A stretch of 63,579 nt of DNA, counting the filler, from Octopus bimaculoides (taxonomy: Eukaryota), in NCBI RefSeq assembly GCF_001194135.2. It is 4 parts of 4 records of this genome, joined end to end, with 100 filler letters (N's around TTAATTAATTAA, not from the genome) between each part and the next. Parts side by side here need not be neighbours in the genome. Positions count along the whole stretch, not along the records: positions 1 to 20,422 come from NC_068981.1; positions 20,523 to 36,591 come from NC_068987.1; positions 36,692 to 39,957 come from NW_026306323.1; positions 40,058 to 63,579 come from NC_068988.1. One strand, 5' to 3'. How positions within the stretch are numbered: the first letter of the stretch is position 1; each line of letters opens with the position of its first letter. Of this stretch, positions 1 through 63,579 are shown one piece after another. The notes beneath the pieces were generated by a model. That model worked only from the letters and a program-made list of their open reading frames with translations, was not told the DNA's origin and searched no databases. The translations under genes were made by a program, and so were the position numbers.

Positions 1-397
1 ACTTCTGCCCGGCACGGCGCATGTTTGCGCCTTGTCGACCAGTTTATCGATGACAAGCGCCAACCTCTCGGCTATTACTTTGGCCAAAATTTTCAAATCT
101 GCGTTGAGCAGAGTGATGGACCTGAAATTATCTATAAAATTTCCCTTGTTTGGGTCTTTCTTCAGCAATGTCACTGCACCTCGGCTCACGAAACCGGGAA
201 TTCTCCCGTTTTGTTGCCAGTTGCAGTAGACTGATGCCAAGAGGTCTCCAAACAAGTCTGGCATTTGACAATACAGCTCGTAGGGTAGACCATCCAATCG
301 AGGCGACTTATTCCTCGCGCAGCCCGCCATAGCATCCCTTACTTCAGCAGCTGTGATGGGACCCTCACAACAATCTGCCTCTCCCGCCGAGAGCCGC
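1..397 (-). mobile_element. L1/Tx1-clade LINE, 5'-truncated; open N-terminal part of the RT domain, runs off the window start
   Basis: Manual minus-strand translation is stop-free: RLSAGEADCCEGPITAAEVRDAMAGCARNKSPRLDGLPYELY...VTLLKKDPNKGNFIDNFRSITLLNADLKILAKVIAERLALVIDKLVDKAQTCAVPGRS. It matches the L1/Tx1 RT motifs KSPGxDG, (F/W)RPIxLLNxDxKILAK and QxxxVPGR. Confidence 0.9.

Positions 398-442
<45 letters not shown>
398..442. repeat. (GATA)n microsatellite abutting the Tx1-like 5' junction
   Basis: Pure tagata/gata run that starts immediately after the LINE sequence. Confidence 0.95.
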
Positions 443-443
<1 letters not shown>

Positions 444-984
444 CACTGTGTGTGTGTATGTGTGTGTGTGTGTGCATGCGTGTGTGTTCATGAGAACAAA
501 GCTTTCTGGTAGAAAATAAAGTACTCAATACTTCAAGAAATGGTGTTTGTTATATCATAAATAGATACTTTGAACAAGAGTATAGGATCGAGACGGGATT
601 AATTCTCTACACAGTTCTTTACTAAATATCATACACATTAATGTTTGTTTTTGTATACACACACACACACATACACACACATATGCAAACACACACACAC
701 ACATACAGACAGACACGCACATACATACGCGCGCGCACACACGCATACACACACACACATATACAAACACGCGTGCGCACATACACGCACACATACACAC
801 ACGCACATACACAGGTACATACGTGCATGCACATACATACACACATACAGACACACACACACACACTTTAACAAGGAGGTTGACGAAGGCAACTGAGCGG
901 AAACTTCGAAGTCACTGCCAGCCTCACCTTAACTCGTGGCCTTGAGTTGACCTTGTAAATGATATTATGTAAAAGGAAACTGTG

Positions 985-1120
985 CAGAAGCCCATCGAGT
1001 TGATGTCCCTGAAATTAAGACGTGCAGCTTTGTTACACCCTGATTTATCCGAGGATGACATTAATGGTACACATATCTGTGGAATGCTCAGCCACAATAT
1101 ATGCAAATTCAGTGAGCAGG
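985..1120 (+). mobile_element. Diverged fragment of SINE family D
   Basis: ttacaccctgatttatccgaggatgacattaatggtacacatatctgtggaatgctcagccac aligns to gtcacgctgaatatccccgagaactacgttaagggtacacgtgtctgtggagtgctcagccac of the copies at 9420 and 28025. Confidence 0.65.
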
Positions 1121-1192
1121 TAAGTCACTTGATTGAATAACTAAATCCTCATAGTCGAAACTGGTGGAAACCCAGCCAACCATCCATGTATG

Positions 1193-1226
<34 letters not shown>

Positions 1227-1231
1227 TGTAT

Positions 1232-1331
1232 GTCATTATAGAGTTTTATTTCAAGATTTCTTAGTAATAGAGAAAGAGCCGGTTTCTTAGTCAGATCCAA
1301 GGAGCCTTCATTGGAATTTCACCATCAACAA
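1232..1331 (-). mobile_element. ~100-bp dispersed module (family E) inside (TATG)n; possible PLE pLTR relic
   Basis: Homologous to 25032-25130 and 35180-35282. Has a CCAATGAAGG-hairpin-GAAACCGG segment and an AATAAA signal. Confidence 0.7.
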
Positions 1332-1719
1332 TAGGGTATGTATGTATGTATGTATGTATGCATGTTCAAATGTTCCTGTTTGTCAGCGAAAGAAGAAGAA
1401 ATTTCTGCTATTGATACAAAAGAAAAACAATCGCGTCTTATAAAAAACAATGTTGAAAGTAGGTCTGGATACATTTAATGCGACATGTACGATAAATCTT
1501 CCATTTCAAACTGAACTAAACTAGAAGTCCTTTTTTCTTACTTCTTCCTAACAAAAGCTCCACTTCGTAATCTTGCTTGATCTATGATTCACTTACTTAA
1601 AAGCACACAACATTTCTTTTGCATGAACATACAAGGTTTCTCTTTCCAGACTCGTTTGCAACAAAACTGTACCTTGCGGACTGGATCTCCCGACTAATCT
1701 ACAGCTTCCCAAACACACA

Positions 1720-1895
1720 TAACCTACAGCAGTTAAAACCGAGCATTAAATATGAAATAAATAGTTTCTCAATATTTCTACTTTTCTACGCTGCACACGT
1801 AATTCATGACTCAGTCGTCACTACTTCGGCAAAAAGAGCCAAACTTAAATTTCGCTGAGAAGGTCAAATATAATCGAAACAGCCTGGAATTGTCT
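1720..1895 (+). mobile_element. Possible Penelope-like relic (GIY-YIG C-terminal-like peptide followed by a degenerate HHR)
   Basis: Peptide QQLKPSIKYEINSFSIF resembles the IKxLKPSLNxQxxSxxL end of PLE ORFs. It is followed by CTGA-GA AGGT..AATC GAAAC AGC at 1855-1883. Confidence 0.35.
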
Positions 1896-2591
1896 CCGTA
1901 CTTGTCAAAAGACTAAAAATAATAATAATCAATTATTAATATTTTTCATTGCTTAAGTAGTTTTCTAGTTAATCTTTTGAAGTTCATTACCTTAAATATG
2001 TTGACACAATCTGAAACATTAAAAACTTCAAAGGTGTAATAAATTGATTTTTCTCATATATTACACTTTTGAACTGATTACTCTAACTAATTGCTAATGT
2101 AAAACATAACTAATTTCTTCAGATCCTATAGTTTCTTTTAAATGGTAAAAATACTAACGTAGACAGTATTGTGCAACAATGGGCTTTTATTTTCCCGTTG
2201 GGTGTTAATAAATCACATCAAGTACGAGGTTCAACCTATTCTACAAATATGAAATGGCCGGGTAAATAATGTACAATTCCTGGTTGGTGAGTCAAAAATC
2301 CAATAGGGACGTTTCTTTCTTTTGTAGATAAATCATTTTATTGTACGGATTGAGTTCAACATAGAGTCTAGACTGATCGTTTTACACGACACACGAACCT
2401 TGTATCCAAGATATAGGATATATTTAATCCATCTCCTGGCCATAAAACTAGGGATGTTCATTGAGTCGAGATGAAATCAGCTTATTACGTCAGTGAACAA
2501 GGCATTATGTTCCGAATGTGACTACTTTTGCTCTAAAGTTGAAACAACTTGAGGGTGTTAGCAGCGCCACGACAGTAAAATTTATTGGTAT

Positions 2592-2634
<43 letters not shown>

Positions 2635-3417
2635 NNNNNNNNNNNNNNNNNNNNNNNNNNNNNNNNNNNNNNNNNNNNNNNNNNNNNNNNNNNNNNNNNN
2701 NNNNNNNNNNNNNNNNNNNNNNNNNNNNNNNNNNNNNNNNNNNNNNNNNNNNNNNNNNNNNNNNNNNNNNNNNNNNNNNNNNNNNNNNNNNNNNNNNNNN
2801 NNNNNNNNNNNNNNNNNNNNNNNNNNNNNNNNNNNNNNNNNNNNNNNNNNNNNNNNNNNNNNNNNNNNNNNNNNNNNNNNNNNNNNNNNNNNNNNNNNNN
2901 NNNNNATATATATATTTATATATTTGTATATAGAGAGAGTAAGATGTATACTACATGCTTGCCACACACACATGGAGATAATAGATATACATTTGCTTCA
3001 CAGTACATATTACAATCCATCTAAACACGAAATGAACGTCTACGTGAATAAAATAGAATGGCATAGAGGAATCTCAAATATATCATACAAAGTGGATATG
3101 TATATATTATTTTTAATCCGGGACATAACATTGTTTCGATATGAGGTTGTGCTACTTGTCATAATACACACTCTAATCACTTCCTAAACTCTGCTTTTAG
3201 ATCTCTTTAGTATTGGGTGATTTTCTGTAAATTCCAAGTTTTATGTGCCTGAATCGCATTACGTTTGCTTGTAGGGAGTAGATTTCACCTATTGGCGTAG
3301 GATGAGTACCAATCGTTTACCTACGAGCATTTCTTTCTTCTAAAAATTTCTAGTGCAAGAGTGTGAATGAGTATTTTGTGGTTGTCACAAGGTTATGCTG
3401 CAGCTTATGTTCTACGG

Positions 3418-3747
3418 CAGGCCTGGCCCACTCGAATTACATTGCGGGCCATTTTATTCACAGAAAGTTTTTTGATAGCCGCTTGTATACTGATAGAATT
3501 GAAAGCATTTTGCTGTCTCATGCTATTATTACACTAATGAATGAATGATCGTTGATTCAACATGAAATTTTATCGTTGCAAAATCAGTAGTATCTTTCTT
3601 TTTACTTTTCACTACAATCTTTAATTTTTGATAACATTTTTAAAATGTTTGTTTAAATAAACCCATTTCAAGAAAGTATCAAGCGGCCTCCAAGATAAAC
3701 GTCTGCGGGCTGCATGTGGCCCGCGGGCCTCAGGTTGGCCAGCCCTG
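3418..3747. mobile_element. hAT (Charlie-like) MITE
   Basis: TIRs CAGGCCTGGCCCAC and GTTGGCCAGCCCTG, subterminal GGCCCGCGGGCC, and an 8-bp TSD ttctacgg/ctctacag (6/8 match, Charlie-like NTCTANAN). Confidence 0.8.
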
Positions 3748-3789
3748 CTCTACAGCTTCACTGGATGGCCAATGTGTTCAAGATAGAGG

Positions 3790-5160
3790 ACTTTTCTAGA
3801 TTTTCAGTTTTAGTTACATCTATGTGGGGCAGTCTATTGTGTATGGCTGTCAGAAACTTCTTTGGTAGCGGCCTCACCTTCGTGCAGACAAGCGGATGAT
3901 TCGTATCACAAACTTCATCGTTGTATATCTTAGCCAGCTTTAAGGAAACTGTCGAGAGTAGAATCAGCCAAAGTATATGACACAAAATATATGACCTCTT
4001 TGACCTTTGACTTTCTCAGACTCTCATTGATTACCCACATTGATTACTTAGCTGATAAAAATCGCTAAGTTTTCCTATGATTCATAATGAACATTGCGCA
4101 ATAAGAGCACTGAAGGTCAAAAGAAACTGGAATGAAGAACAGAATCAGGTATCGATATGTTTTCGGCCCGACAACTTCTGGTACTTTCTTCGCACTGATC
4201 CTGAAATACACATTCAACTCTCTAACTGACGATGTCTGCCTCCCCTCAAGATCTGATGGTCGGGTACTCAATATATCCAAACTAAAGATCAAATATTAAG
4301 GCAAGTTATTATCAGCTGTTTGCTGATGAAGCAACTATCTCCTCAAACAATTCAAGAGGGATTTTAAACTCTTATGAACAGATTCTCAGGAGCTTGTGGC
4401 TTATTTGATCTCGTAATCTAAGTCACTCCAGTTCCTCCTTGCATTAAGGACAAATTTAAGAACTGGCGTTTTGATATATTGGTGTTACTCTCCTACATGC
4501 AGAACTCGTGAAGGGCAATGGAAAAGCAGTTATGATTCTCTCAAGGCTTACAACGAAAGTTGGCAGAATAAATATCTCAGAATATCTACCAAAGTCGATG
4601 TGTACAAGGCTTGTAGTTCTCAATACGTCTCTGCTTGGCAACAACACAGACCTCATGTGTTTCGTATAAGATGTCTGTACAGAATCATTGCATCAAAGGG
4701 CAATATTGGGATGTGAAACACTGCCGTATTTTCACTATTCAGCGCCAAAAACGCCGATGATCTGGACGTGTTAGTCTCAGAGATGAATGCTGTATTCCAA
4801 AAGATCTGCTAGGTGGTGAAATGGAATCGGAACTAAGATGCAAATATCGTCTGCACAAGGATGTATGTGAGTGTGATATGAAAGTGACTAACATCAAACA
4901 CGTTTCATGGGAAGAAATCGCAGACAACGGGAATCACTGGAAATAATAAGTGTCTCAGAGATTAAGAAACGGAGAGCAAAAACTTCATAAGATCAGGATG
5001 GACAAAGACAAGCAAGAGTAATTTATGTTTTTCTTCATAGAAAACCCACATGCAGCATTCACAAAAGTCCTTTATGCCATGTCTGCAGTCAAGGCTGCAG
5101 GTCGAGAATTGAACTTCGCAGTCAGTTTAGAAGATGCACTCCGTCATCGTCATATTCTCA
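3790..5160 (+). mobile_element. Degenerate RTE-clade LINE (RT and C-terminal region)
   Basis: Frameshifted motifs in the expected order: SLLCMA (SLLSIxGK), QLxExCRExNQPxY, FGPTTSGTFFALILKY, SRSDGRVLNISKLK, IPKDLLGGE, KDVCECDMK..WEEIADN..W and CSQGCRSRIELRSQFRRC. Confidence 0.88.
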
Positions 5161-5175
5161 CGGGCGTTCTACGAC

Positions 5176-5176
5176 T

Positions 5177-5251
<75 letters not shown>

Positions 5252-5350
5252 ATTTTTGTTATTGTTGTTGTTACTGGTGGTGGTGGTAGTGGCGGCGGCG
5301 GCGGCGGCGGAGTGGTGGTGGTGGTGGTGGTGATGATGGTGGTGGTGGTG
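5176..5350. repeat. Compound trinucleotide microsatellite (CAG)n(TAG)n(TTG)n(GGT/GGC)n at the RTE 3' end
   Basis: Read directly; continues into an N gap. Confidence 0.95.
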
Positions 5351-5833
5351 NNNNNNNNNNNNNNNNNNNNNNNNNNNNNNNNNNNNNNNNNNNNNNNNNN
5401 NNNNNNNNNNNNNNNNNNNNNNNNNNNNNNNNNNNNNNNNNNNNNNNNNNNNNNNNNNNNNNNNNNNNNNNNNNNNNNNNNNNNNNNNNNNNNNNNNNNN
5501 NNNNNNNNNNNNNNNNNNNNNNNNNNNNNNNNNNNNNNNNNNNNNNNNNNNNNNNNNNNNNNNNNNNNNNNNNNNNNNNNNNNNNNNNNNNNNNNNNNNN
5601 NNNNNNNNNNNNNNNNNNNNNNNNNNNNNNNNNNNNNNNNNNNNNNNNNNNNNNNNNNNNNNNNNNNNNNNNNNNNNNNNNNNNNNNNNNNNNNNNNNNN
5701 NNNNNNNNNNNNNNNNNNNNNNNNNNNNNNNNNNNNNNNNNNNNNNNNNNNNNNNNNNNNNNNNNNNNNNNNNNNNNNNNNNNNNNNNNNNNNNNNNNNN
5801 NNNNNNNNNNNNNNNNNNNNNNNNNNNNNNNNN

Positions 5834-5888
<55 letters not shown>

Positions 5889-6258
5889 GAATAACATATC
5901 TAATTCGTATTTCTATGGCTGAGTCCAAGCTTGATTGGCGGTACCCATGACCTTTGTAAGGTCTCCAGCACTGGTGGAGAGAAAAAGAACTTATGACTCA
6001 TTTGTTGCTACTGCAAGAGAGAGCAGTGCACTAAGATATCCAATGAACCTTAGTCTGGACATCTAACTCGAATGATTACCCCAAAATAAGCTCAGCTCGA
6101 TGCACCTGAAAATCTGTCAGTAGAGTTAAACAGGTGGTGGGGCCAGGCATGTCAAACACGCGACCCTTTTCAAACACAAGCGCAGCCCATGGGAGAAAAA
6201 GAAACAAAACATTTTTATTAATAGAAATAACTAATAATAATCTAATTAATAAAATTAG

Positions 6259-6521: not shown

Positions 6522-6769
6522 TAATTAATAAAATTAGGATTATTGATTAGCAAATAAAAGATTTTTACTTAATAATAAAGAATTGAAGACAGAAATCTTT
6601 GTTGCAAACGCTTGTTCAAAACTATGTAGGCTCTCATGACAACATGTATGTGAGCAATGCAGTTTGATACGTCTAGTCTTGTCAATGTACCCATCTGTGG
6701 GTAGTACGACTTCATGAGGAAACTATGGACTAAGTTTTTACACCCAATGAACCATATATATTTTGTAAC

Positions 6770-6930: not shown

Positions 6931-6973
6931 GCAAAAAAAAAATTTAAACCAAGATTTAATTTCAGTAAACACA

Positions 6974-8571: not shown

Positions 8572-8616
<45 letters not shown>

Positions 8617-10130: not shown

Positions 10131-10359
10131 CCAATGTGTATCTATGGGATAAGGCAGCGATCCAAGGATCGAGGTGTAGGAAGAAAGTTAGCTTCAAGCA
10201 ATCCGTAGTAAATATAAAAAAACAACTTTCAGGGACAATATTGGCTTATTGAGAGGGGAGGTTGTGGATTTTTTCATATCGAAGTACAATAAACCGAAAA
10301 AAAGTTCTTTTTATATTTCACGAAAGGCTACCAGGTTTGCTGGGTATGCGAATTAGAAT

Positions 10360-10648
10360 ACAAGAGTTAAGGAATGGAGTAGATAAGATCCAGGTGGCAT
10401 ATGTTTTATAACGAACAGAACCATGGAATTGGTAAGTATCCAAGTTAGGTGTATACCATTCTGATTGAATCTTCCACATGTTAATATGTACCTCCTTGCG
10501 ACAATGTAGACTTTCGTTTAATCAGGATATCCTCGGTCTGAAGAGTAGCTTGCGACATACACCTCGCTTGGATATTTACCACTTCCGAGGTTCCGCTCGC
10601 TATGAAACACATATAGCCCGGATTTTATCCACTCCATTCCTTAACTCT

Positions 10649-10651
<3 letters not shown>
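10360..10651. mobile_element. Divergent inverted pair of pLTR-like modules with a degenerate HHR
   Basis: 10360-10454 is an imperfect reverse complement of 10557-10651. The plus copy reads CTGAAGA GTAGC...GCTAT GAAAC at 10538-10608 and ends at (TA)n. Confidence 0.7.
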
Positions 10652-17459: not shown

Positions 17460-17666
17460 ACCGCGTGTGTATCTTTGGTGATTTTCTTTCTCCGTCTTCC
17501 CTTCTTTGAACTTTTTCTATATTTCTGATGAAGAGCTCCGCTCGAAACGTGAAATCCTCTTTCTTTTCTATCCTTTCCTGAGCGTCCAATAACACTACTT
17601 TTTTCACATCCTCGCGTTGTTGTTTTTTTTGTGTTTTTCTTGCTTGTTCATGCTTTGATTGACTGC
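17460..17666 (+). mobile_element. pLTR-like module (family F) with an HHR motif at 17521-17555
   Basis: ATTT CTGATGA A GAGC-TCC-GCTC GAAAC GT G AAAT. Homologous to 59777-59925 and flanked by TA-rich microsatellites. The cleavage triplet is GUG, predicted inactive. Confidence 0.75.
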
Positions 17667-18480: not shown

Positions 18481-19645
18481 GAGATAATCGAACAGATCGA
18501 AGTATTGAGTTTGTTTCGTATTGCAAAGTTGATAGGAAATATTGATAAAACTCAGTAGAGGAGTTAATATGTACTTTAATGAATATTTCTTGCTAAGTCA
18601 GTTTTTAGAATCTATGTTCACAGTAATAATTTATAAATTGTAACTTCTGCTGAGAATCATCACACAACAGTTCTTTGTCATTAATTTTTGTATAATAAAT
18701 TCATTCAAAGTTATCGATTAGAATATGCAAACTAAGCGAGAACAGATATTTGAATATTCAGCATCGAATATTCAGAAATGAGGCTATTGCTTACTTACAG
18801 AGAAGTCTAGATTTTCAAAGTTTCAGTTGAATATATTAAAATTTTAATTGTATTCCTGATACTTCCCTCATTGGTTGAGGGGAAGTAGAGAAAAGCAAAC
18901 GCATCTGGCACCCACGGAACAATGGTTACTGCATAGTAATTTATTAATGGGACTAGCTACCAAAAAGGTGTTATAGTTATATGCAAATTGGTCCATTCAA
19001 TTTACTGAGGTTGATTTATGAATCAGTGTCTCTGTGGATAGTTAAAGAAGGCGTTCAACCTCTATGCCCAGGAGTAGTTTCTTCTGGAAAGCATCATCGC
19101 CATCAGATTTTACGAGCATTTTGGAGTAAATGTCCTTGTTGACTTCAGGCCTGAATTGGGTCGTCTCCCATCACGGCATAGTGTTTCAGTCGCCTTTGGT
19201 TTGCAACATGTTAGACCTCATGACCTTCTTGATTCACAATATATATATATATGTAAAGAATAAAAAGTTTTGAATGGTACAACAATGCACTGTAATACAA
19301 AACATGGACTATATTCCTGTTGTAAATTTAGTTATCCATAGTCCGATGATATTTCGGAATACAATTCCTTCTTCAGATATTCTTAGATGGCGACTCCATC
19401 ATNNNNNNNNNNNNNNNNNNNNNNNNNNNNNNNNNNNNNNNNNNNNNNNNNNNNNNNNNNNNNNNNNNNNNNNNNNNNNNNNNNNNNNNNNNNNNNNNNN
19501 NNNNNNNNNNNNNNNNNNNNNNNNNNNNNNNNNNNNNNNNNNNNNNNNNNNNNNNNNNNNNNNNNNNNNNNNNNNNNNNNNNNNNNNNNNNNNNNNNNNN
19601 NNNNNNNNNNNNNNNNNNNNNNNNNNNNNNNNNNNNNNNNNNNNN

Positions 19646-19685
19646 ACGTACTCGAGTTTCAGGGTTATTTCCCTTCTTCAGCGTA
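19646..19685 (-). ncRNA. Intact minimal type-I hammerhead ribozyme motif
   Basis: Minus strand reads TACG CTGAAGA AGGG-AAATAA-CCCT GAAAC TCGA GT A CGT: complete core, 4-bp stem II, palindromic stem III (ACTCGAGT), GUA site and stem I pairing. Confidence 0.85.
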
Positions 19686-19850
19686 CCTGAATAACCCTGA
19701 AACTCGAGTACGTACGTATCGTAGATCAAGATGGGAAGGATAACTTCCCTTGGCAAATACAGACAGGACACAGAAGTGTGTCGATAGCCAGTTGGAGGAG
19801 ATGTCCTCCTGGGGCTAAAAGCAACAGTAACATTCATATATATATATATA
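19686..19850 (+). mobile_element. Inverted partner copy of the HHR module (9-nt core deletion) plus downstream pLTR-like sequence
   Basis: CTGA[AGAAGGGAA deleted]ATAACCCT GAAAC TCGA GTA CGTA. 19690-19713 is a perfect 24-bp reverse complement of 19646-19669; the unit ends at (TA)n. Confidence 0.75.
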
Positions 19851-19851
19851 T

Positions 19852-20340
19852 ATGGGCACAGGACGTCACGAAATGTGTACAACGACAACAAAAATACGAA
19901 GCACGAGAACATGGAAAATGAACTATTCTTTCGAACAACGAAAGACACAAATGGAACACGCATCCTCTTCCAAGTACGTTTTATCTGTCTATATATATAT
20001 GGCTTAATAGCCCACACCGTTTGTTTTTGCTATTTTGTTCTTACTCTCCTGTTCTTGTTACCACTTTCACCCAACGCAAAAAATCCTAAATTTTATTTAA
20101 TTTGCTTTGCGAGAAGGACTGTTTTAATGAAGTCGCGTCTTGTCTCTACCTTCGAAACGCGGAGTAGATAAAACAGGGGACAACTGATGAAAGGAATGTT
20201 CTTTATGTTGCCTGTCTCGTTTCTCTATTTGTTTCTTTCGTTGTTCGAAAAAACAGTTCATTTTCCATGATTTTGTCTTTTATGTTCTCGTTTCTCATTT
20301 TGTTCACGTTTTGTTTTGACGTCCTGTACCCATGTATGCA
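19852..20340. mobile_element. Divergent inverted repeat element between two (TA)n tracts
   Basis: gggcacaggacgtca...catggaaaatgaactattctttcgaacaacgaaagacacaaat (about 19855-19950) is the imperfect reverse complement of about 20225-20330. Degenerate HHR-like words at about 20126-20160 and 20184. Confidence 0.7.
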
Positions 20341-20422
20341 TGTATATATGCATATATATGTAGGCATGTACATGTATGTATATATATGCATATATATATA
20401 TTATATATATATATATATATAT

Positions 20423-23337: not shown

Positions 23338-23848
23338 AAGAGCGAAGACGTGGTATGAGCAAACCCCAGGAGGAGTCACCGAAAATGAGAACTGCAAATT
23401 CCTGTGGGATGTGATGATCCAGTGCGATCACCTGACATAGGAAACCGGACATTGTTGTGGTGAATAAAAAAGAAAGAACATGCATGATAATCGACATAGT
23501 ATACCCCGGTGACAGCAGGATCAATGTAAAAGAAGAAGAAAGAATAAACAACTATGGCGATTTGAAGTGGGAAATACGGAAGTTGTGGCCAATGAAGAGA
23601 GTAGACGCGATACCAAGAGTAATTGGTGCAGTTGGAAGTATCAGCACTCAACTACCAGAAGGGCTGAAAAAGATTGGTACAAATGTAAAGGTAGAACACC
23701 TACAAAAATCAGCATCGCTTGGAACTGCAGGAATTCTTCGCAGGGTTCATGAAGCATGACCAGAAAAGAAGTGTCGCCTTAGTCTGCTGGCTGTGGACAG
23801 CTGACACTTTCCATCATACCCAGCAAAATAAGCTGTGAGTATTCATAT
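23338..23848 (+). mobile_element. 3' end of an R4/Dong-like non-LTR retrotransposon (restriction-like endonuclease domain plus 3' UTR)
   Basis: WYEQTPGGVTENENCKFLWDVMIQCDH / KPDIVVVNKKERTCMIIDIVYPGD..KEEERINNYGDLKWEIRKLW..VIGAVG..LQKSASLGTAGILRRV matches the R4-clade PD-(D/E)xK RLE pattern; one frameshift. Confidence 0.88.
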
Positions 23849-23916: not shown

Positions 23917-24000
23917 TTCGGACGCATTTTAAATGCTAGCATTTTTTTATTATAAAAATGACATTAGAGTACCAAATATATTCATTACATAACTGATATA

Positions 24001-24472
24001 CAGGGGTTCTGCATATTATCTAAAATTTGAATATTACATCCTGGTGATGGCCACCACTACGAAATGAACATTCACGAGCTCGCTTTCTCATATCAAGCAT
24101 ACTGCGGCTTAGCATATCAACTGGAATGGCTGCAATCGCCTGTCTCATGGAAGTTTGTGACAGCACGCAAGATCATCTTTCGAGATGATGATGTATGTCG
24201 CTTTCCAAAATGCTGCCAGAATTTTCTTTGGGCTGCAACAATGGATCTTTGGCTGGTAAACTATGCTTTGACAATGTAGGGACTTTCTTTTCAAGTTCAC
24301 GACATTTTGATGGTTACCGACACCAATTACTAGTAAAAAATATTCTAATCTTAGATAATATGCTGAACTCTTCTATATCGGTTATGTAATAAATATATTT
24401 GTTACTCTATGCCATTTCTATTAGCCAAGATACTAGCATTTAAAATGTAGCCCATCATTATGGCCCACCCTG
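24001..24472 (-). mobile_element. Internally deleted Tc1/mariner-superfamily element (rosa/DD41D-like)
   Basis: TA on both flanks and CAGGG termini. Minus strand fuses N-terminal SIVAAQRKFWQHFGKR..MILRAVTNFHETG to C-terminal AIAAIPVDML..RARECSFRSGGHHQDVIFKF*. Confidence 0.72.
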
Positions 24473-43109: not shown

Positions 43110-44999
43110 NNNNNNNNNNNNNNNNNNNNNNNNNNNNNNNNNNNNNNNNNNNNNNNNNNNNNNNNNNNNNNNNNNNNNNNNNNNNNNNNNNATATATATA
43201 GTAAGAGGAGGGATATAATATCCAGGCAGATAACGATTTTTCTCCGTAAAATGCCAAGGCTGGTTCCTTCAGATTTGCGTTCGTTTCATGGTAAACTTAC
43301 TTTAACACTCATCCGATGTTACAGTTTATACCTCGCTACTTAGAGTGTAAAGTACAATATTGATAATAAGGAGAACAAAGAATTTCAACATCCAAATTTT
43401 ATGTTCAATTAGAGTTGGCTTAATCATAATAATTGTCCGACACGTGTTTCGATCGCAGAATTATATATCCTTGTATATGTATATGCAGCGATTTATGCAC
43501 TTTTATTCATAAACTTTACAACCTGAATGAAATTCAGAGGAAACTGGGAGAAAAGGACTTTATTAAGGAATTCAAACCCAAGCTTGACAAACAATGTTTA
43601 AATTAATCTTATTTGGGGTTTAAAAATTTTAACCCAATAACTAAAACAAAAAAATTCTCGAAAAAGTACTGCTGTCATCATTTCTAAAAATAAACATTGA
43701 AAAATGGTTTGGCATCATCTCTAAAAATAGCCAAACAACTACTACTGCCGTCCACAGGAATGTACAAAGAGGACAAAAGACAGTCAACTGCAGTTGAAAC
43801 ATTCCTGTCACAACATGGGACGTTGAAGACTGCTAAAATGCAAGAAAGTATATTAGTCCTTGAATATTTCATATTCAATATTTCAATTATTCAAAAAGAC
43901 AATCAATACTTCATTTCATTTTACTATATATACTATATATTCCATATTCCATATCCTACATTAATATTATAAGAATATAAATAAAACATAAAATACAGAG
44001 TTGCAATTCCTTTGAATAATATATTTCTCTATACACAATCATACAAAACCCTTTATAAATATATATATATATATATGTACATACATGGATTTTTAAAAAT
44101 AAAATACGGAATACGCCGTAGAATTGTAAAGCAAATATGAAATCAGACACACACACAACAGTGATTTATGTCACAAACCGAAGCAAGAAGAATATATTGA
44201 AATAACTGACATAAAAAGAATTAAGAGATACGGGAAAATAATTCAAGTGTATTACAAACTTAATAAAAATGTGAGGTGAACTGACGTGTCGCATGAAGAT
44301 ATATTTAGCTGAGAATAATTCTGTCACATAAAATTTCATATAGATAAAACTGAGGAAGCCTGTGGTGAAATACAGCTTCAGATTCAGAATTACTGAGACA
44401 TTTTAAACGCATTAAAGTAACAGATATGCGTCTGTGAATTCATTAAACCACTAGAGAAGCCATTAAGAAATATAATTGAACGTACTTGATGTATTTGGAA
44501 AAAAAGATTGTGTCTATATTTAGTAATGTATTGGAGGTTGTACGCTAATTAGGACAAAAGATAAGTAGAAGAAAAGAAGGTAAAGTACTTTCGAAAAGAT
44601 TAATCATATCTATGGTTTTAAGATACAGTAGTCAAATATTCCTGCAAGGAACAACATGTACAAGCATTTATTAATATGTTGAAAGATGCTTGTTAGCTGA
44701 CAAATGAAAATAATAATCTACCAGAAATTAAATTCCCAAAATTAATTTACATGCAATTTACATTCTTATTGGTTGGGAACTTTGATGTTTGCTTCAGTAT
44801 AAGAGGGGACTTACAATCGTGTTTTATGTCACGTTGGACATCCGCAGTATAAAACCTACAGAAACTTGTTTTTATAATATGACATAGTATTTCATAGGCA
44901 GAAAAAAGCAAAATGAAGATATGTTTGATGAGTATATTAATAAATAAAAACTAGAATGCGTTAATTAAAATGTGCATTTGTATTAAGAGCACTTTCATT

Positions 45000-45140
45000 A
45001 CATTATTTAAATTATTTATAATTGACGGGTATTTGTCCTCATCTTGTTTGTTGTAAACACAACGTATCGGCTGATATACCTTCCAGCATTCTTCAGGTGT
45101 CTTGGGGAAATTTCGAACCCGGATTAGAACCTGGATTAGA
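45000..45140 (-). mobile_element. pLTR-like module with a degenerate HHR at 45057-45100
   Basis: Minus strand: ACAC CTGAAGA A TGCTG-GAAGGTATAT-CAGCC GATAC GT T GTGT; two substitutions from a canonical HHR. Confidence 0.7.
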
Positions 45141-46624: not shown

Positions 46625-46675
46625 ATATATATATATATATGTATGTATGTATATATAAATACATATATACAGTAA

Positions 46676-46897
46676 GGAATTAAATGTGAAACGAGGTGGA
46701 AAAAAATAGTATTTGAATACCAGAGGTAGAGTAATATGCTTTATTAATAAAGCTGCAAAGGCATCACAAAAACTGTTATTCAGAGTTTCTTGTTCCCTTT
46801 CGTCGGACAGTTTTATTCGAGAATCCCAACTAAAACCGTCCGGCGAACGGGAACGTGAAACTCTGAGTACAGTTTTGTGATGTCTTTTCAGCTTTTG
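46676..46897. mobile_element. Divergent inverted pair of HHR-like modules with a CCGACGA core
   Basis: 46769-46814 (minus) and 46832-46876 (plus); consensus AAAACTGT CCGACGA ACG-GGAA-CGT GAAAC TCTGAGT A ACAGTTTT. The left copy continues into AATAAA and ends at a TA-rich tract. Confidence 0.78.
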
Positions 46898-47342
46898 TAT
46901 GGTATATAAATACATATACATTGATATATATAGAGGGCAGATGAGAAAAAGAGATAACCCACAGCTTTTAGCGCTTATTTCTAGCAATGTAGGTGCTACT
47001 TTGCACCATCAGTCCAAATTAATGACAATTGAATCTTTCCATTTGAGATTTATATTGCTAATAGCCGTTTCTGTTATGACATCTTTCTCTCTCTTTCTCT
47101 CTCTCTCTCTCTCTATCTGTCTCTCTCTTTCCCTCTGTCTCTCTCTCTCTTTCTCTCTGTCTCTCTCTCTCTCTNNNNNNNNNNNNNNNNNNNNNNNNNN
47201 NNNNNNNNNNNNNNNNNNNNNNNTATATTGCTAATAGCCGTTTCTGTTATGACCTCTTTCTCTCTCTTTCTCTCTGTCTCTCTCTCTCTCTTTCTCTCTG
47301 GCTCTCTGTCTCTCTGTCTCTCTCTTTTTCTCTGTCTCTCTG

Positions 47343-56090: not shown

Positions 56091-56125
<35 letters not shown>

Positions 56126-57582
56126 TGTAATCGTTGTTTATTAGTGGTTATAAATAAACCATTGCTTTGACGTCAGCAGTATAGAAAACACATAGGAACT
56201 TCTGGCCGGAGACACATAACCTCTTTACTAATGGAGGTAAGAGGTGTCTTCTTGAGCATGATCGTGAAATAAGCGAAATTCTGAAAAGAATTTATTTGAA
56301 TCGAAAATGTTTTGTCAGCGAAGTTGATAACCAGATTACGTAAGTTCAAGCAAGAATTTTCTCTCATAATAACACCAAGTAAACTATTCACCATCTATGT
56401 ATGTGTGTGTTCGGGTATGTGTGTGCATGTTTGTATGTAGGTGAGTGAATGTGCGCGTGTGTATGTGCGCATGTGTTTGTGAGTGTGTAGGAGTGTATGG
56501 GTGTATTTTGACCGTTTACGACTTGTGGTGTACTACAGTGTATTATAAGCAGAAAAAAAACTTCGATGTGCAAAAACGTGTAAACACAGCACATACGCAC
56601 TAAGCCTCATACAGACACATACAGACACACACACACACATACAGTTATATATGTATGTACCTGAGTGTGAATGTGCTTGTGTGCGCTTTTGTTTGAATCT
56701 GTGTACTTGCATTACGTGTTTGTACGTATAATCATATTTTCTCAATACTCACTCATATATATGTCTATATATTTATATATATATATATNNNNNNNNNNNN
56801 NNNNNNNNNNNNNNNNNNNNNNNNNNNNNNNNNNNNNNNNNNNNNNNNNNNNNNNNNNNNNNNNNNNNNNNNNNNNNNNNNNNNNNNNNNNNNNNNNNNN
56901 NNNNNNNNNNNNNNNNNNNNNNNNNNNNNNNNNNNNNNNNNNNNNNNNNNNNNNNNNNNNNNNNNNNNNNNNNNNNNNNNNNNNNNNNNNNNNNNNNNNN
57001 NNNNNNNNNNNNNNNNNNNNNNNNNNNNNNNNNNNNNNNNNNNNNNNNNNNNNNNNNNNNNNNNNNNNNNNNNNNNNNNNNNNNNNNNNNNNNNNNNNNN
57101 NNNNNNNNNNNNNNNNNNNNNNNNNNNNNNNNNNNNNNNNNNNNNNNNNNNNNNNNNNNNNNNNNNNNNNNNNNNNNNNNNNNNNNNNNNNNNNNNNNNN
57201 NNNNNNNNNNNNNNNNNNNNNNNNNNNNNNNNNNNNNNNNNNNNNNNNNNNNNNNNNNNNNNNNNNNNNNNNNNNNNNNNNNNNNNNNNNNNNNNNNNNN
57301 NNNNNNNNNNNNNNNNNNNNNNNNNNNNNNNNNNNNNNNNNNNNNNNNNNNNNNNNNNNNNNNNNNNNNNNNNNNNNNNNNNNNNNNNNNNNNNNNNNNN
57401 NNNNNNNNNNNNNNNNNNNNNNNNNNNNNNNNNNNNNNNNNNNNNNNNNNNNNNNNNNNNNNNNNNNNNNNNNNNNNNNNNNNNNNNNNNNNNNNNNNNN
57501 NNNNNNNNNNNNNNNNNNNNNNNNNNNNNNNNNNNNNNNNNNNNNNNNNNNNNNNNNNNNNNNNNNNNNNNNNNNNNNNNNN

Positions 57583-57644
<62 letters not shown>

Positions 57645-57920
57645 GTTTATATATGTGTGCATATATATATGTAAATATACTTATAGCCATATGTGTGTGT
57701 GTGTGTATGTGTGCGTGCGTGCAATTTTGTGTGAGGTAAGTATCCAGATAGAAGGTGGATGAAATAATATGAATCACACCTAAAGGTGAAGGATCTATCA
57801 CACAGATTAACAAAAATAGCATATTTTCCAACTGATTAAGAAAGAAACATAGCACATATCCAATAGGAGCATTATTGTTTGGACAACTGTTAATGGTTTC
57901 TCACTAAATTCTATTGTGTG

Positions 57921-58813
57921 TAGTCGTCTGATCAATAAGTATCTAAACTGTTGCCATAGTAACGAAGAGAAAGTACGCAGAGTGAAGCTGCTTTGCACAG
58001 ACTGACTTTGAACGCTGCTGTGCATTTGCACTAAGTTTTAACGTTCTAGCTCAGTTCCCCTGTTTACAGCAGCGCTTTGGATAACGTGCGTAGCGTGTGG
58101 TCGTCGAATTGACCATGACAGAGAAAGTTGAGCAGAGAATCAGCTTCAAATGTTGCCAAAAGCTTGGTGATACCTGATCAGAGGCGTACGCAAAGTTTTC
58201 AAAAAGTTTTCATCTTTCTCAACACAATCAAGGAGATCTTGTACAACTGAAAGTGTCTTTTTAGTCCGCTCAAAGCAGTTTTGGCACAAACTTGGCAGAC
58301 ACGCGTCTCATGCCCAAATCTTCAGTGGTAATGGCCTGAACTGAACCGTCACTAATCTGCACATCCTCTGATATTTCATAGATTGTGATTCGATGATTTT
58401 CCCCTCAGAGCTGCATGCACATCTGCCATGCTTTTCACAGTTCTGCTGGTTGCATGTCTCCCAGAACGTTCGTCACTATCGACTTTTTTACGGCCATCTT
58501 GGAAGCGTCTGACCTACTCGTACATATGTGTGCAGCTCATTCACTCCTCTAAATACACTTTCTGAAACTTTCCGTCGGTCTCTGAGCAAGGAACGCCATG
58601 GCAACCAACTCTCTCATGGTCAATGTGACGATCACACGCTACACACCTTCCTTCCAAGCATGGCTGTAAACAGCGGAAACAAGCTAAATCGCTAAACCTT
58701 AGTTCACTTACGTAGCAGAGGTCAAGGTCAGCTTGTGCCAAGCGGCTTCACTCTGCGTGGTTTAGCTTTGTTACTATGGCAACAGTCCGGGTACTTATTG
58801 ATCAGACCTTGCA
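57921..58813. mobile_element. Palindromic mariner derivative built from two 5' ends
   Basis: ~190-bp imperfect inverted arms beginning (G)TCTGATCAATAAGTA..ACTGTTGCCATAGTAAC. The left arm leads into MTEKVEQRISFKCCQKLG on plus; the right arm leads into DERSGR..DLGMRRVSAKFVPKLL on minus. Confidence 0.85.
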
Positions 58814-59564
58814 TGTCTCTAGCAAATGAACAGATTTGCACTCTGCTTGATAATGTGAGATACAGAAGTATCGAATTGCACATCTTGAGCTCTTGGAGTG
58901 AGAGTCTATTATATATATTTCCCTCTGTCTAATACAGGTTTGCAATGCAGTAGGCATTGTGCCTCCCAATCTATAGTGATTTGCGACCCAAAGGTTTACA
59001 CTCCTTGTATGTCCCGTGTCGTTACTTTATTCCTCTTAATATTCGTCTCAGCAGGAATACTCCCGTAGAAGATGTAGTCTTGTAAAAATTATCCAATGTG
59101 CAAAAGTAACATTCCTTTGACAGCCGATATGCGACTTTATCTATACAAAATATTCTTAATTTCTGTTTGCATCTCGTTTGCAAGATTCTGTATATGAATT
59201 TATGTGTTGAAAGAAATTGTGTTGTCTAGGGAGCGTCATTATGTCAGTATTGTTAACACCCGCACTGGTTCAATTGCACTACTTTATCATTATTCAATTG
59301 GTTAAATACCCAATTAAATAAGCGAGTGTGTGTGGCTCTCAGTTTTCGATTGTTTTCGTCACTGGGATGGTGTACTTAGAGTCTTTATCCATTTGCTCGA
59401 TTTCACCTTTCTGTTTAATGATAACCTGTGGTTTGGTCAATTTGGCTGCTATGTCAGCAAGCTGGTACTGCTTGCTTGGACCTTTGATTGTTAATTGACA
59501 TTTTATACCGTTACAGGTTTTTGTTTACGCATGCTAAACCACTGCAAATCATATATACTCTTTT

Positions 59565-59776
59565 ACAGTTTTACTTCTTTCAGTCATTTGACTGCGGCCA
59601 TGCTGGAGCACCGCCTTTATAGTCGAGCGAATCGACCCTAGAGCTTATATCTTTGTAAGCCTAGTACTCATTCTATCGGTCTTTTTGCCGAACCGCTAAG
59701 TTACGTGGACGCAAGCACACCAGCATCGGTTGTCAAGTGATAATGTCGGTACAAACACAGACACACAAACACACAC
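59565..59776 (-). mobile_element. SINE family B 3' half (split copy)
   Basis: tttcagtcatttgactgcggccatgctggagcaccgcc...acaaacacagacacacaaacacacac. Confidence 0.88.
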
Positions 59777-59925
59777 GCTCCTCCGTTTCTCCATTCTTTG
59801 AACTTTCCGGCTTTCCGACGAAGGGCTCCGCCCGAAACGTCATACTCTCTCTCTTTCCTTTCCAGAGCGTCCAATAACACAGTCCGTATCACGTCCTCAC
59901 TTTTTTGTGTTTTTTTAAACTATAT
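59777..59925 (+). mobile_element. Family F pLTR-like module with an HHR motif at 59811-59846
   Basis: CCGACGA A GGGC-TCC-GCCC GAAAC GTC. The downstream gagcgtccaataacac is shared with the 17460 copy. Confidence 0.78.
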
Positions 59926-60067
59926 NNNNNNNNNNNNNNNNNNNNNNNNNNNNNNNNNNNNNNNNNNNNNNNNNNNNNNNNNNNNNNNNNNNNNNNNNNN
60001 NNNNNNNNNNNNNNNNNNNNNNNNNNNNNNNNNNNNNNNNNNNNNNNNNNNNNNNNNNNNNNNNNNN

Positions 60068-60205
60068 NCCGTCTACGAAATCTACTCACAAGGCTTTGGT
60101 TGGCTCATGGCTAAAGTAGAAGACACTTGCCCAAGGTCACACGCCGTGGGACTGAACCCGGAGCCATGTGGTTGGGAAGTGATCTACTTACCACACAGCC
60201 ACATG
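60068..60205 (-). mobile_element. SINE family B 5' half (split copy)
   Basis: ccgtctacgaaatctactcacaaggctttgg..agaagacacttgcccaagg..gggactgaacccggagccatgtgg..cttaccacacagccac. Confidence 0.88.
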
Positions 60206-60644
60206 TTTTTGTATGTGCGTATGTCTATATGTATACATGTATACTATATAATCAAAGTAGAGGAACTTGGTGAGTGGTTCTGGTGTGACATATTTATATT
60301 AGAATTTGAAAGGGAGGGATATAGATAGAGAGAGAGAGAGAGAAGAGAGAAGAAGCAAGAGGTAACGAAAAGAAGAGTTGTATGAGCTATACTCTATTGC
60401 AGGCTTGCATGCTGGGAGGACTTCCGTTATTTTTGACTAATTGATATCTGCATCCATGAAATAGAGAATCAGTTAATGTGCTGTCTCATGCATCAGATTA
60501 GAAATTGTAACATAAGACATCGTTACAGAAAGACAAAGAACTGTCATCACATGCACATGATATGAATATATAACTAATAGAATTAATAATTATGGACATT
60601 AACAATATAAATCTGCTTCCAATTTGCTATGTTCGTCTATATAT

Positions 60645-60651
60645 CTATCTG

Positions 60652-60724
<73 letters not shown>

Positions 60725-60745
60725 TTATCTATCTATCTTTATCTA
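60645..60745. repeat. (CTAT)n microsatellite
   Basis: Read directly. Confidence 0.95.
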
Positions 60746-60827
60746 TATATAAGTATAATGAACAAGCTTGAGTTGTTTGCTTTGCCTTAATGTATATTGT
60801 TCTCTTTACTAATTATACATCTCTAAG

Positions 60828-60900
<73 letters not shown>

Positions 60901-61489
60901 GTGTGTGTGTGTGTGTATGAAATTACATGCGGAAGAGTGCGTGTGAATGTATGTTTGTAGGTATCTATATATGTATGTATTGTCATTATAACAGACGTTC
61001 TATTTCTCGTATTTTTGTGTGCGTGTGTGTGTGTCTGTTAAGGGAATCAAGGATTCAATATTTCCAGACGAATAGCTCTTTAAGCACGATGTGGAAATTT
61101 AATCCAGTTAATTCATATATTTTTTCTATTAACTTCCTCATTTCCTGTGACAAGTTCAATTTGTAGATCCGTGGTTGTACATCAGTTCAGTTCCTTGTAT
61201 TAAACATAGAGTGTATTAGAAGAAAGATGAAGATCAGGAATGATCAGGAATGAAGAGACGCATGATCACGAATTTATTTCGCTGTTACACGTTTCGAATA
61301 CCCAGGCACGACTTAAGCGTTGTACTTGGCAAAATGAATATTTAATCGATCCGTCAACTGGTTGATTAAATAAGAATTCTATCTTGATATGAAGTTTAAG
61401 ATTACTGGCCGCCATAAAACTCCGAAGACAAGCATGTATTCACTTGTTATGACTTAAAATGTTGTCAACAAAATAGGAGTATTTTGAAA

Positions 61490-62363
61490 GCATACGCCAG
61501 TTCAAGTTGAAGCTAACTTTGATGGTGACTCTGCTCATTTTCCTTGTCTAAAAGATACGGTTTCGACCGCAGATAATGTTGACATGAATTGGCACAAAGG
61601 CAATATTATGAGACTGCTACGAGAGTTTGGGAAACGGTTTCAAATTTTTGATAAACCTGAGACAGATTTCACAGTTTTTCGCTTGCCATTTACAGTCAAC
61701 ACCTCTGACCTGTCTGTCAACATCCAACTTGAAATGATCGACTTGCAGTGTGATTCAGATATAAAGTACAAATTTATCTCAGTGGGCTTGAACACATTTT
61801 ATCAGTATCTCTTGCCAAATATCCCAAATTGACAGCTCTTGCTGCGAACGTTTTGAGCATGTTCGGGACTACCTACCTTTGTGAACAAATGTTCCCCCAA
61901 TTAACATCAATAAAACAAATCGTCGCTCAAGACTCAAACGTCAGCACCTAAATAACATCCTGAAATTAGCTGCTTTTGAGGATTTGACGCCTGATATTGG
62001 TGTACTTGTGAAGGAGAAAAGATGGCAAGTGTTAAGAACATATTAAAAACAAATGATAGAAAATAATAAAAATGTTTTTAAAGAGTTTTTTTTTTAGTCT
62101 ATAAATTGTATGCATTTACAAGGCAGTATGATAAATCAGTCTTCTTTAACAGTTCCTGCTTTCACTTGTTCAATGTTTTCTAAACAAAAATTGTTCTTTA
62201 AACGTGGACATTTTCAGAATGAACTTTTTTACACTAAGGCAAAGGGGACATTTTGAAATTGCTATCTATAGGTTCTTACGCCATGACTTTACTAGTCCAG
62301 CCCGTTTGAGATCAAATTGGGTTGATATGTGCCCCGTGACCTACATTGAGTTTGATACTCCTG
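61490..62363 (+). mobile_element. 3' part of a hAT transposon (Charlie/SPIN/GTF2IRD2-like transposase C-terminus plus right TIR)
   Basis: LLREFGKRFQIF..FRLPF..IQLEMIDLQCDSDIKYKF..FYQYL / KYPKLTALAANVLSMFGTTYLCEQMF..RRSRL..HLNNILKL..LTPDI..LVKEKR. Terminal tgagtttgatactcctg resembles the reverse complement of CAGGGGTGTCAAACTCA. Confidence 0.88.
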
Positions 62364-62859
62364 GTTTAGCTTTTCCCCAGATCGAATTACCAGCTGTTGT
62401 TCCAACGTCACAAAGGAAAAATTGAAATAAGTTTATATAATAATATAAATACGTATGTTTGCATATATGCATGAGAGAGCGCTCTGTTGCTATAGTATTA
62501 AATGTAAAAAAACGTTTTATTTCTGTTATAGATATTTTGGCTGCTTACAATTTTTTTCTGACTTTGTTTGGCGTGTATAATATCAAACATTTTCGTTTTT
62601 TGTTTTTTTTTCTTTATGGGTCATTCTGCAGTCATCGGATATTAGAATCAAGCAGCCATTTTTTATTGGGAAAGTGTAGAAGGACGGTAGATCGCAAGGA
62701 CATATAAAACACCGTAAACATTCAATTATTTTATTATTGCATTTACTTGGTCACCTTATGTTCCAGAGATTAACAAGCATTCATTATTATCGCAGAATTA
62801 TTTGCAATCTGGACAAAATACTTAACAAATTTACTTCAAGCTCCTTATATGCTGAGTTG

Positions 62860-63000
62860 CACCTCAATCGGCGTCAATTTTCATCGTTTCAAGACCAACA
62901 GAATGAAGTATCAGTCCAGTACAGGAGCCGATTACATCCACTACCCCCTGCCCTAGAAAATTCAGGCTTCGCGCTGAAACTACGGAGAATATTTATGAAA
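62860..63000 (+). mobile_element. SINE family C, degenerate
   Basis: cgtcaattttcatcgtttc..aagtatcagtccagtacaggagccgattac..ccccctgccctagaaaattcaggc. Confidence 0.55.
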
Positions 63001-63076
63001 GTGTATCAATCGGCAAACAGACGTTATATATATTGATAATGATATAATGTTTTGTTTTCGGCTAATTTCTGGAAGA

Positions 63077-63077
<1 letters not shown>

Positions 63078-63121
<44 letters not shown>

Positions 63122-63131
63122 NNNNNNNNNN

Positions 63132-63168
<37 letters not shown>
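63078..63168. repeat. (GATA)n microsatellite with a small gap
   Basis: Read directly. Confidence 0.95.
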
Positions 63169-63169
<1 letters not shown>

Positions 63170-63579
63170 CATATATATACAACAACGATCAAACGCATTT
63201 TAGATGCGACATTCTTAATCAAATTTATCACAAATAATATATTTGAAATAAAACATGGGGCGATTTCAAATAGATTCGGCTACACTCGCTCATCACTCGA
63301 GCAGATGACATAGGTGCATCAATGTCGGCTCAAATCTTCCGCGTTAACTTCCTTCCCTGCGTTGAATTACAGTCTTATTATACAAGTTGCTTTTGTTTTC
63401 TTCTCTACCATCTTGTCTTCATTGAAGTTGTCCTCGTTATATTTTTTTTTATCATATTTCATCCGTGTAATTATATATAAATTTAATTTCACATACTTCA
63501 ATCAACTTGGAAATCCTCTTACAACTTACAATGACATATTGTTTGATTATATGATTTCTTGTTCTATTCCACTCTTTTT

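What the first reader, a model, noticed from the sequence alone, without database searches (positions are those of the whole stretch)
1..63579. Candidate system: a diverse set of ribozyme-bearing mini-retroelements exploiting microsatellites
Seen: at least five unrelated HHR or HHR-like families (10538, 17525/59815, 19646, 45057, 46769/46832) plus family E and weaker candidates in one gapped 64-kb window. Four loci share the layout simple repeat, 3'-copy-5', 5'-copy-3', simple repeat. Tx1-like and Dong-like LINEs also abut (GATA)n and (TAA)n. Known: PLE pLTRs encode minimal HHRs, often occur inverted, and some PLE clades target simple repeats. Inference: short HHR-bearing units amplified non-autonomously (retrozyme-like) in a feedback loop where SINE-born microsatellites serve as targets. 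The new elements would be the density, the recurring divergent architecture, the U4C core and the long stem II variant. Microsatellites are so common here that chance adjacency must be excluded.
Basis: partly seen in the sequence, partly recalled or inferred. Interest (0 to 1): 0.75.

Follow-up and report, generated by a model that had tools for sequence, protein, structure and literature searches.

The report
Scrambled hammerhead ribozymes in octopus retroelements
This repeat-rich octopus-like DNA holds ordinary broken-off tail ends of Penelope-type jumping genes plus short protein-free parasites, and one parasite carries a likely self-cutting hammerhead RNA wired in a scrambled order that also sits at the tail of Naiad elements, a group reported to lack hammerheads.

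Summary
The hammerhead loci are real: seven loci, six families, each with hundreds to thousands of genomic relatives. They are not one mini-element system. A, B, D and E are 5'-truncated 3' ends of Penelope-like elements (PLEs), with endonuclease remnants upstream in some copies; inverted layout and (TA)n targeting are published PLE traits. C (351 nt) and F (741 nt) are ORF-less wrap-around units (retrozyme type). 3' ends touch (TA)n in 20-77% of copies against 2.6% background; D does not (8%). A SINE-born-target loop is unsupported. The unusual part is F (20070-20194). Its hammerhead blocks run cleavage site, GAAA, CUGAUGA, and stem II is replaced by two helices made with an upstream strand. 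All helices but one show compensatory changes across four families, one being the Naiad 3' end. Genomic 5' ends pile up 2-20 nt past the predicted cut (34/62 versus 2/28; 20/60 versus 2/40), suggesting cleavage in vivo. Family C, with a normal hammerhead, shows no such pile-up, and RNA reads show no cut ends. Cleavage is untested. The scan noted this motif before, on other DNA of this genome and on another genome.

The parts
10161..10453 (-). Family A, inverted arm of a Hydra-type PLE 3' end; holds only the GAAA/cleavage half of the ribozyme; no microsatellite at its 3' end
10454..10651 (+). Family A, direct arm; type I hammerhead with core at 10538 and 59-nt stem II domain; followed by (TA)n to 10681
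   Evidence: endonuclease remnant upstream in L033, L034, L038
17480..17666 (+). Family B sister copy; minimal hammerhead, core CTGATGA at 17525, G at the cleavage position; 3' end on (TA)n
19646..19686 (-). Family C inverted arm with intact type I hammerhead (core at 19681); runs into an assembly gap
19690..19835 (+). Family C direct arm, part of the 351-nt ORF-less unit; ends on (AT)9 at 19836-19853, which it shares with F
19854..19955 (-). Family F inverted arm
20001..20422 (+). Family F direct arm, part of the 741-nt ORF-less unit; ends in an AT-rich tract at the end of the stretch
20070..20194 (+). Scrambled, core-opened hammerhead, damaged in this copy: IIa partner 20070-73, hairpin 20074-20112, IIb partner 20113-17, outer strand 20119-26, stem III' 20134-38, predicted cut after 20139, stem I' 20140-45, G arm 20149-53, GAAA 20154-57, stem III to 20161, outer strand 20169-76, stem I 20178-83, CTGATGA 20184-90, C arm 20191-94
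44999..45125 (-). Family D solo PLE 3' end; minimal hammerhead, core at 45096, GAAA read as GATA; no microsatellite flank; lacks the tRNA-like head of the family
46670..46899 (.). Family E head-to-head pair (Hydra-type PLE end); cores at 46806 (-) and 46840 (+), both damaged; TA-rich tract on the left
   Evidence: RT and endonuclease remnants upstream in L097/L150
59779..59925 (+). Family B solo PLE 3' end inside a SINE; core CCGACGA at 59815, no local stem I; ends TATAT at a gap
   Evidence: GIY-YIG upstream in L146
1..397 (-). LINE RT fragment abutting (TAGA)n 398-443; no ribozyme, not part of the system
23338..23848 (+). LINE 3' end (restriction-like endonuclease C-terminus by eye) followed by (AAC)n(AAT)n; not part of the system

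Best explanation
The loci are insertions likely made by Penelope-like retroelement enzymes, mostly at (TA)n tracts: four families are truncated tail ends of protein-coding elements, two are protein-free units, and one of these carries a scrambled hammerhead fold that likely cuts its own RNA. Shown in sequence: endonuclease remnants upstream of A, B, D, E; wrap-around ORF-less units for C (351 nt) and F (741 nt); fixed 3' ends on (TA)n; head-to-head arms; covarying helices of the F motif; the same motif at the Naiad 3' end; 5' ends piling up just past the predicted cut. Inferred: a PLE GIY-YIG nuclease nicks (TA)n and its RT copies the RNA from one or two fixed internal sites on each target strand, which gives short inverted pairs. 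In F the RNA would fold with blocks in S-G-C order, an upstream strand supplying the G that pairs with C11.1. Cleavage would leave a nicked RNA still held by base pairs: RT often stops near the nick, and otherwise crosses it on a ligated circle or an uncut multimer. F is likely a non-autonomous relative of the Naiad end; which PLE now moves it is open.
For: ORF links: A in 3 of the 5 loci translated, E, D, B in one locus, Pfam GIY-YIG E 1.4e-4. C: tandem period 351, 3' ends at unit positions 172-173 and 218 in 23 of 41 gap-free copies, fold z -7.1. F: 9 of 39 loci exceed one unit, counting one split by a gap; two pattern matches 738 apart. (TA)5+ at 3' ends: B 17/22, F3 29/56, C 18/41, A 7/20, E 5/20, F1 12/55, Naiad 3/15, background 2.6%. 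Motif: stems I and III pair in 89-100% of cells within a copy and fall to 29-68% in many cross-family pairings. On 11 distinct rows 7 of 13 pairs change on both sides and 0 of 500 shuffles reach the covariation score. The G arm pairs 5/5 Watson-Crick with its own upstream partner in all four families and 2-4/5 across families, and a hairpin sits exactly between the two partners. 5' ends at +1..+20 versus -20..-1: F3 34/62 vs 2/28, p 1.5e-5; F1 20/60 vs 2/40, p 1e-3. The S-G motif of the published octopus Naiad end has 787 matches here, control 0. The full layout is visible by eye in three other kinds of Naiad consensus passage.
Against: No cleavage assay. Family C, with a canonical hammerhead, shows no 5' pile-up (5/34 vs 2/29, p 0.44), so the signal has no positive control here. 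Positions +9..+20 are also the 3' strands of helices IIb and III, where RT could stall. RNA reads from 3 raw runs cover C and F on both strands but show no pile of read ends at the cut. Helix IIa shows only one both-sided change and cross-family pairing stays high; the count of covarying pairs was reached by 37 of 500 shuffles and further pair types by 400. Some cross-family controls are uninformative because the strands are alike (F3/Naiad stem I, F1/F3 stem III). No F copy was linked to an ORF, and no fetched Naiad-end copy showed a recognisable ORF within 1.5 kb; the Naiad link rests on the published consensus. F3 copies are 95-99% identical to the query, while cephalopod Naiads are described as long inactive. 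Pfam did not recognise the A, D, E fragments; clades are by eye. The assembly is gapped at microsatellites.
Confidence: 0.7

Rival explanations
1. All loci are ordinary 5'-truncated PLE ends; the F motif is a conserved but non-cutting structure (protein-binding site or RT pause).
For: True for A, B, D, E. No cut ends in RNA reads. The pile-up overlaps helices IIb and III. The canonical stem II is absent.
Against: C and F wrap around with no ORF seen. CUGAUGA, GAAA and the A-U pair with UH are kept in all four consensus lines. Nine F3 ends lie at +2..+8 but one at -1..-18, both single-stranded after unwinding, and the stronger hairpin (-17 kcal/mol) stops few copies.
Confidence: 0.17
2. The F motif is a plain type-SGC hammerhead with a short stem II between the C and G arms.
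For: Block order and the 2-5 nt link from stem I to the G arm match; G-C and G.U are possible in all four families.
Against: Only 2-3 pairs, half wobble, against 5-6 covarying Watson-Crick pairs with the upstream strand. In one other kind of Naiad passage the two arms cannot pair at all, by eye.
Confidence: 0.08
3. One reading: all families are mini-retroelements feeding on SINE-born microsatellites.
For: (TA)n enrichment; C and F are ORF-less; many D copies start at a tRNA-like head; target tracts have a SINE beyond them in 11 of 56 cases against 57 of 528 tract sides.
Against: Four families run into ORFs. (TA)n tracts in arbitrary DNA are no closer to SINEs (43 of 320) than random positions are (18%) (four SINE references only). 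D avoids (TA)n.
Confidence: 0.05

Closest known systems
Endonuclease-bearing PLEs: Hydra, Neptune, Penelope/Poseidon clades (PMC8557442; passages and supplement passages read)
   Same: 5' truncation, inverted copy, two 3' end points, (TA)n preference in Hydra and Neptune, type I hammerhead at the 3' end; fits A, B, D, E.
   Different: The motifs of A and E differ from the Hydra-1_oBim hammerhead listed in the supplement. B has no local stem I. D carries a tRNA-like head in its 3' UTR.
Metazoan non-LTR retrozymes (PMC7229834, passages; bioRxiv 10.64898/2026.07.22.740005, first fifth and passages)
   Same: ORF-less unit of 170-400 nt, type I hammerhead, tandem or permuted copies, strong self-pairing; fits C.
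   Different: C is mostly dispersed, shorter than a dimer, with fixed PLE-like 3' ends on (TA)n; octopus is not named in either text. F is 741 nt and its hammerhead is not type I.
Type-SGC hammerheads, HRIMA-1 (Eckert et al. 2023, PMC10085705; sections 13, 14, most of 18 and passages read)
   Same: Block order cleavage site, GAAA, CUGAnGA; short link between stem I and the G arm; pseudoknotted.
   Different: That paper found none in genomes of known organisms. Here stem II is replaced by two helices to an upstream strand with a hairpin between them, and the motif lies in animal retroelements.
Naiad PLEs (PMC8557442)
   Same: The same motif lies at the 3' end of Naiad_Obim, Naiad_Ovul and, by eye, other Naiad consensus passages; (TA)n targeting.
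   Different: The paper reports that Naiads lack canonical hammerheads and marks 8 as 'half core'. F units have no ORF.

Membership tests
EN+ PLE 3' ends (A, B, D, E) | GIY-YIG or RT ORF upstream on the same strand | tested here: met
   Pfam support only for B, in one locus with two gaps between ORF and ribozyme
EN+ PLE 3' ends (A, B, D, E) | Fixed 3' ends, variable 5' truncation, inverted copies | tested here: met
   B copies are nearly all solo
EN+ PLE 3' ends (A, B, D, E) | Clade by RT phylogeny | not tested
   Hydra for A and E, Neptune for B, Penelope-like for D are by-eye motif calls on short remnants
Non-LTR retrozyme (C) | Short ORF-less unit, tandem or permuted, canonical type I hammerhead | tested here: met
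Non-LTR retrozyme (C) | Self-cleavage and circular RNA | not testable with these tools
   reads cover it without ends or strand bias; fold z -7.1 is only compatible
Non-LTR retrozyme (F) | ORF-less wrap-around unit | tested here: met
   sister F3 has tandem spacings near 0.8-1.0 kb
Non-LTR retrozyme (F) | Type I hammerhead and 170-400 nt monomer | tested here: not met
   S-G-C order, 741 nt
Type-SGC hammerhead | Blocks in order S, G, C with conserved core | tested here: met
Type-SGC hammerhead | Covarying stems I and III | tested here: met
Type-SGC hammerhead | Stem II formed between the C arm and the G arm | tested here: not met
   2-3 weak pairs; each arm has a better partner upstream
Type-SGC hammerhead | Interaction helix joining the far sides of stems I and II | not tested
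   a candidate seen by eye in F1 only
Type-SGC hammerhead | Cleavage at the predicted site | tested here: inconclusive
   genomic 5' pile-up; no RNA end pile
tRNA-headed SINE (part of D) | A and B boxes with copies starting at the head | tested here: met
   about 15 of 38 loci by eye; box labels recalled; ARAGORN finds no tRNA gene in 10 of 10
tRNA-headed SINE (part of D) | Pol III transcription | not testable with these tools
   no data

The most novel reading that the evidence does not exclude
Many Naiad retroelements and their protein-free offshoots use an undescribed hammerhead topology, non-circularly permuted and with stem II opened into two helices, that cleaves in vivo; this genome holds thousands of copies in at least four families, and the cut is recorded in the 5' ends of the insertions.
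Probability: 0.62. Interest if true: 0.86.

Novelty: new variant of a known kind. Interest (0 to 1): 0.73.

Why it matters
Naiads dominate many invertebrate genomes and were taken as evidence that PLEs can do without hammerheads. If the scrambled motif cuts, that argument falls for part of the clade, non-circular permutation moves from environmental RNA to animal genomes, and the rule that stem II joins the two core strands is broken. The 5' pile-up would also show what a PLE-type ribozyme does to its own template. The claim can be tested with one in vitro transcription. The rest of the finding is known biology in a little-studied genome.

Tried and rejected
Rfam at E up to 5: the 150 rows shown were nearly all microsatellite-driven miRNA or snoRNA matches, none a hammerhead; 137 lower rows were not shown. 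My six-permutation descriptor assumed a canonical stem II; it missed the window's F copy and found 4 type I and 1 GCS hit in 319 kb against 0.8 in shuffles. I first read F as plain type SGC and dropped that after note e1-8806550. Run search: no RNA holder listed; the small word shares were not used as evidence. One lay of reads gave nothing, so F3 was never laid. In one search, 15-20 reads per run join 20140 to 20177 on opposite strands and one run has 32 loose ends at 20140; these may come from an inverted genomic copy or from fold-back artefacts and were not counted. L147 was fetched on the wrong side, so the ORF link of B was not checked in a second locus. ARAGORN negative on D. Rows dropped: gap-ended copies (5 of 70 F3, 1 of 70 F1, 8 of 50 C at 5' ends; 0-15 per family at 3' ends); copies not fitting the anchor pattern (for example 26 of 39 F1 kept). 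Literature searches that found no report of the motif in animals or Naiads; of a PLE-tailed SINE. The library lacks most subscription papers. The Craig supplement is cut when stored, and the Eckert and bioRxiv supplements were not seen.
Full report
Setting. The window is four joined stretches of a 2.34-Gb gapped genome. A 23-nt motif of the published octopus Naiad consensus matches 787 times, so the animal is octopus-like. I searched the genome with each locus, then with three sister families, and sampled 40 arbitrary 10-kb stretches (319 kb non-N) as background.

Observation. Seven loci in six families carry hammerhead-type motifs. All six are genome-wide repeats. The background holds 17 such loci in 319 kb, so the window is about twice as dense, with profiles biased to the window. 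Inverted arms occur at A, C, E and F; microsatellites close both ends only at F.

Four families are PLE tails. A continues upstream into a GIY-YIG remnant with Hydra-type cysteine motifs in L033, L034 and L038. E continues into an RT thumb and endonuclease remnant resembling Hydra proteins of the supplement. B has a Neptune-type GIY-YIG 1.7 kb upstream in one locus. D follows an endonuclease C-terminus. Clades are by-eye calls; Pfam recognised only B. PMC8557442 (passages) describes 5' truncation, inverted copies, tails and (TA)n targeting for such elements, and PMC11167929 (abstract, first part of the main text) shows initiation at two internal RNA sites. U4C is known from a viroid (PMC3088659, passage). 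A stem II with a 35-nt loop is listed for another PLE.

Microsatellites. (TA)5+ lies at the 3' end of B 17/22, F3 29/56, C 18/41, A 7/20, E 5/20, F1 12/55, Naiad 3/15 and D 3/36 gap-free copies, against 2.6% of random positions. C, F1, F3 and Naiad are position-ordered samples of exact pattern matches; the others are top hits. (TA)n tracts are not nearer to SINEs than random positions (13% versus 18%), and target tracts only mildly so (11/56 versus 57/528). The feedback loop is not supported.

C is a retrozyme-type unit. A tandem gives a 351-nt period; copies are 95-99% identical, cross the cleavage site and end mostly at two positions 45 nt apart. The monomer folds far better than shuffles. 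This fits PMC7229834 and the 2026 preprint, with PLE-like ends added.

F is the unusual part. It is a 741-nt unit that wraps around; 9 of 39 loci exceed one unit and none of the six translated upstream shows an ORF. A profile search found sisters F2 and F3 (F3 1027 pattern matches). In all, the hammerhead blocks run S, G, C, the order of type-SGC ribozymes, which PMC10085705 found outside genomes of known organisms. Stems I and III covary across F1, F2, F3 and the Naiad end. After reading note e1-8806550 I tested its 'core-opened' idea. In each family the G arm pairs with 5-6 Watson-Crick bases 35-41 nt upstream, the C arm with 3-7 bases further up, and a hairpin fills the space between them. 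Cross-family pairing of the G arm drops to 2-4 of 5. The C-arm helix varies little, so its support is positional. Canonical stem II offers only G-C, G.U and sometimes a third pair. The motif works like a type-SGC hammerhead but fails one defining feature. By eye the same layout is in Naiad_Obim, Naiad_Ovul and three further kinds of Naiad passage. Other passages show other arrangements; I saw only those hit by a few core spellings, so this is no census.

Does it cut? In 70 position-ordered copies each, anchored downstream of the site, 5' ends fall at +1..+20 in 34 of 62 F3 and 20 of 60 F1 copies still at risk, and at -20..-1 in 2 of 28 and 2 of 40. The lowest values are +2 and +4. Against this: C shows no pile-up (5/34 versus 2/29); part of the zone overlaps two short helices; a promoter could give a similar edge; and three raw RNA runs (about 6% of each read, both strands about equal) laid 1441, 1273 and 887 reads, mostly partial, with no end pile at the cut. 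My reading is a nicked template that RT often fails to cross, with C more efficiently circular. That last step is inference.

D aside. About 15 of 38 loci begin at a tRNA-like head inside the PLE 3' UTR and about 5 run on towards the ORF (by eye). This suggests a PLE-tailed SINE with a hammerhead; I recall a similar schistosome repeat (SM-alpha) but did not check it. The window copy lacks the head.

Verdict. Most of the finding is known PLE and retrozyme biology. The scrambled, core-opened hammerhead is well supported as a structure, has indirect support as a ribozyme, and was not found in print. The scan noted it before (e1-8806550, e1-9040678); those notes are not independent evidence. New variant of a known kind; interest 0.73.

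Noticed in passing
Family D loci, e.g. L110, L119, L178 (not the window copy): tRNA-like A/B-box head plus (AAT)n inside a PLE 3' UTR; many copies start at the head, like a SINE that uses PLE machinery.
   Followed up: partly
L027, L071, L078, L091, L143: B-like 3' ends with altered cores (CTGTTGA, CTGTGGA, CTGTGAA), a further family whose catalytic core seems to have drifted.
   Followed up: no
window 59815 and family B: Core and stems II/III are kept but no local stem I can form, unlike the sister copy at 17525.
   Followed up: no
L049:784-900, L096:686-798, L114:563-723, L135:2930-3064, L166:992-1120: Further diverged relatives of the scrambled motif, beyond the four families counted.
   Followed up: partly
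L194, L203, L211, L225: Other type I hammerhead families in arbitrary or flanking DNA, some with long stem II.
   Followed up: no
window 19300-19403: Repeat with CTGAAGA on the minus strand, two relatives in fetched loci; not resolved.
   Followed up: partly
window 43200-43350: Repeat at a TA tract with three relatives at 77-81% in fetched loci; no ribozyme core seen.
   Followed up: partly
window 57926-58807 and 23925-24447: Inverted terminal repeats of decayed DNA transposons (identity by eye).
   Followed up: no
window 19836-19853: C and F share one (AT)9 tract, a nested insertion at the same target.
   Followed up: no
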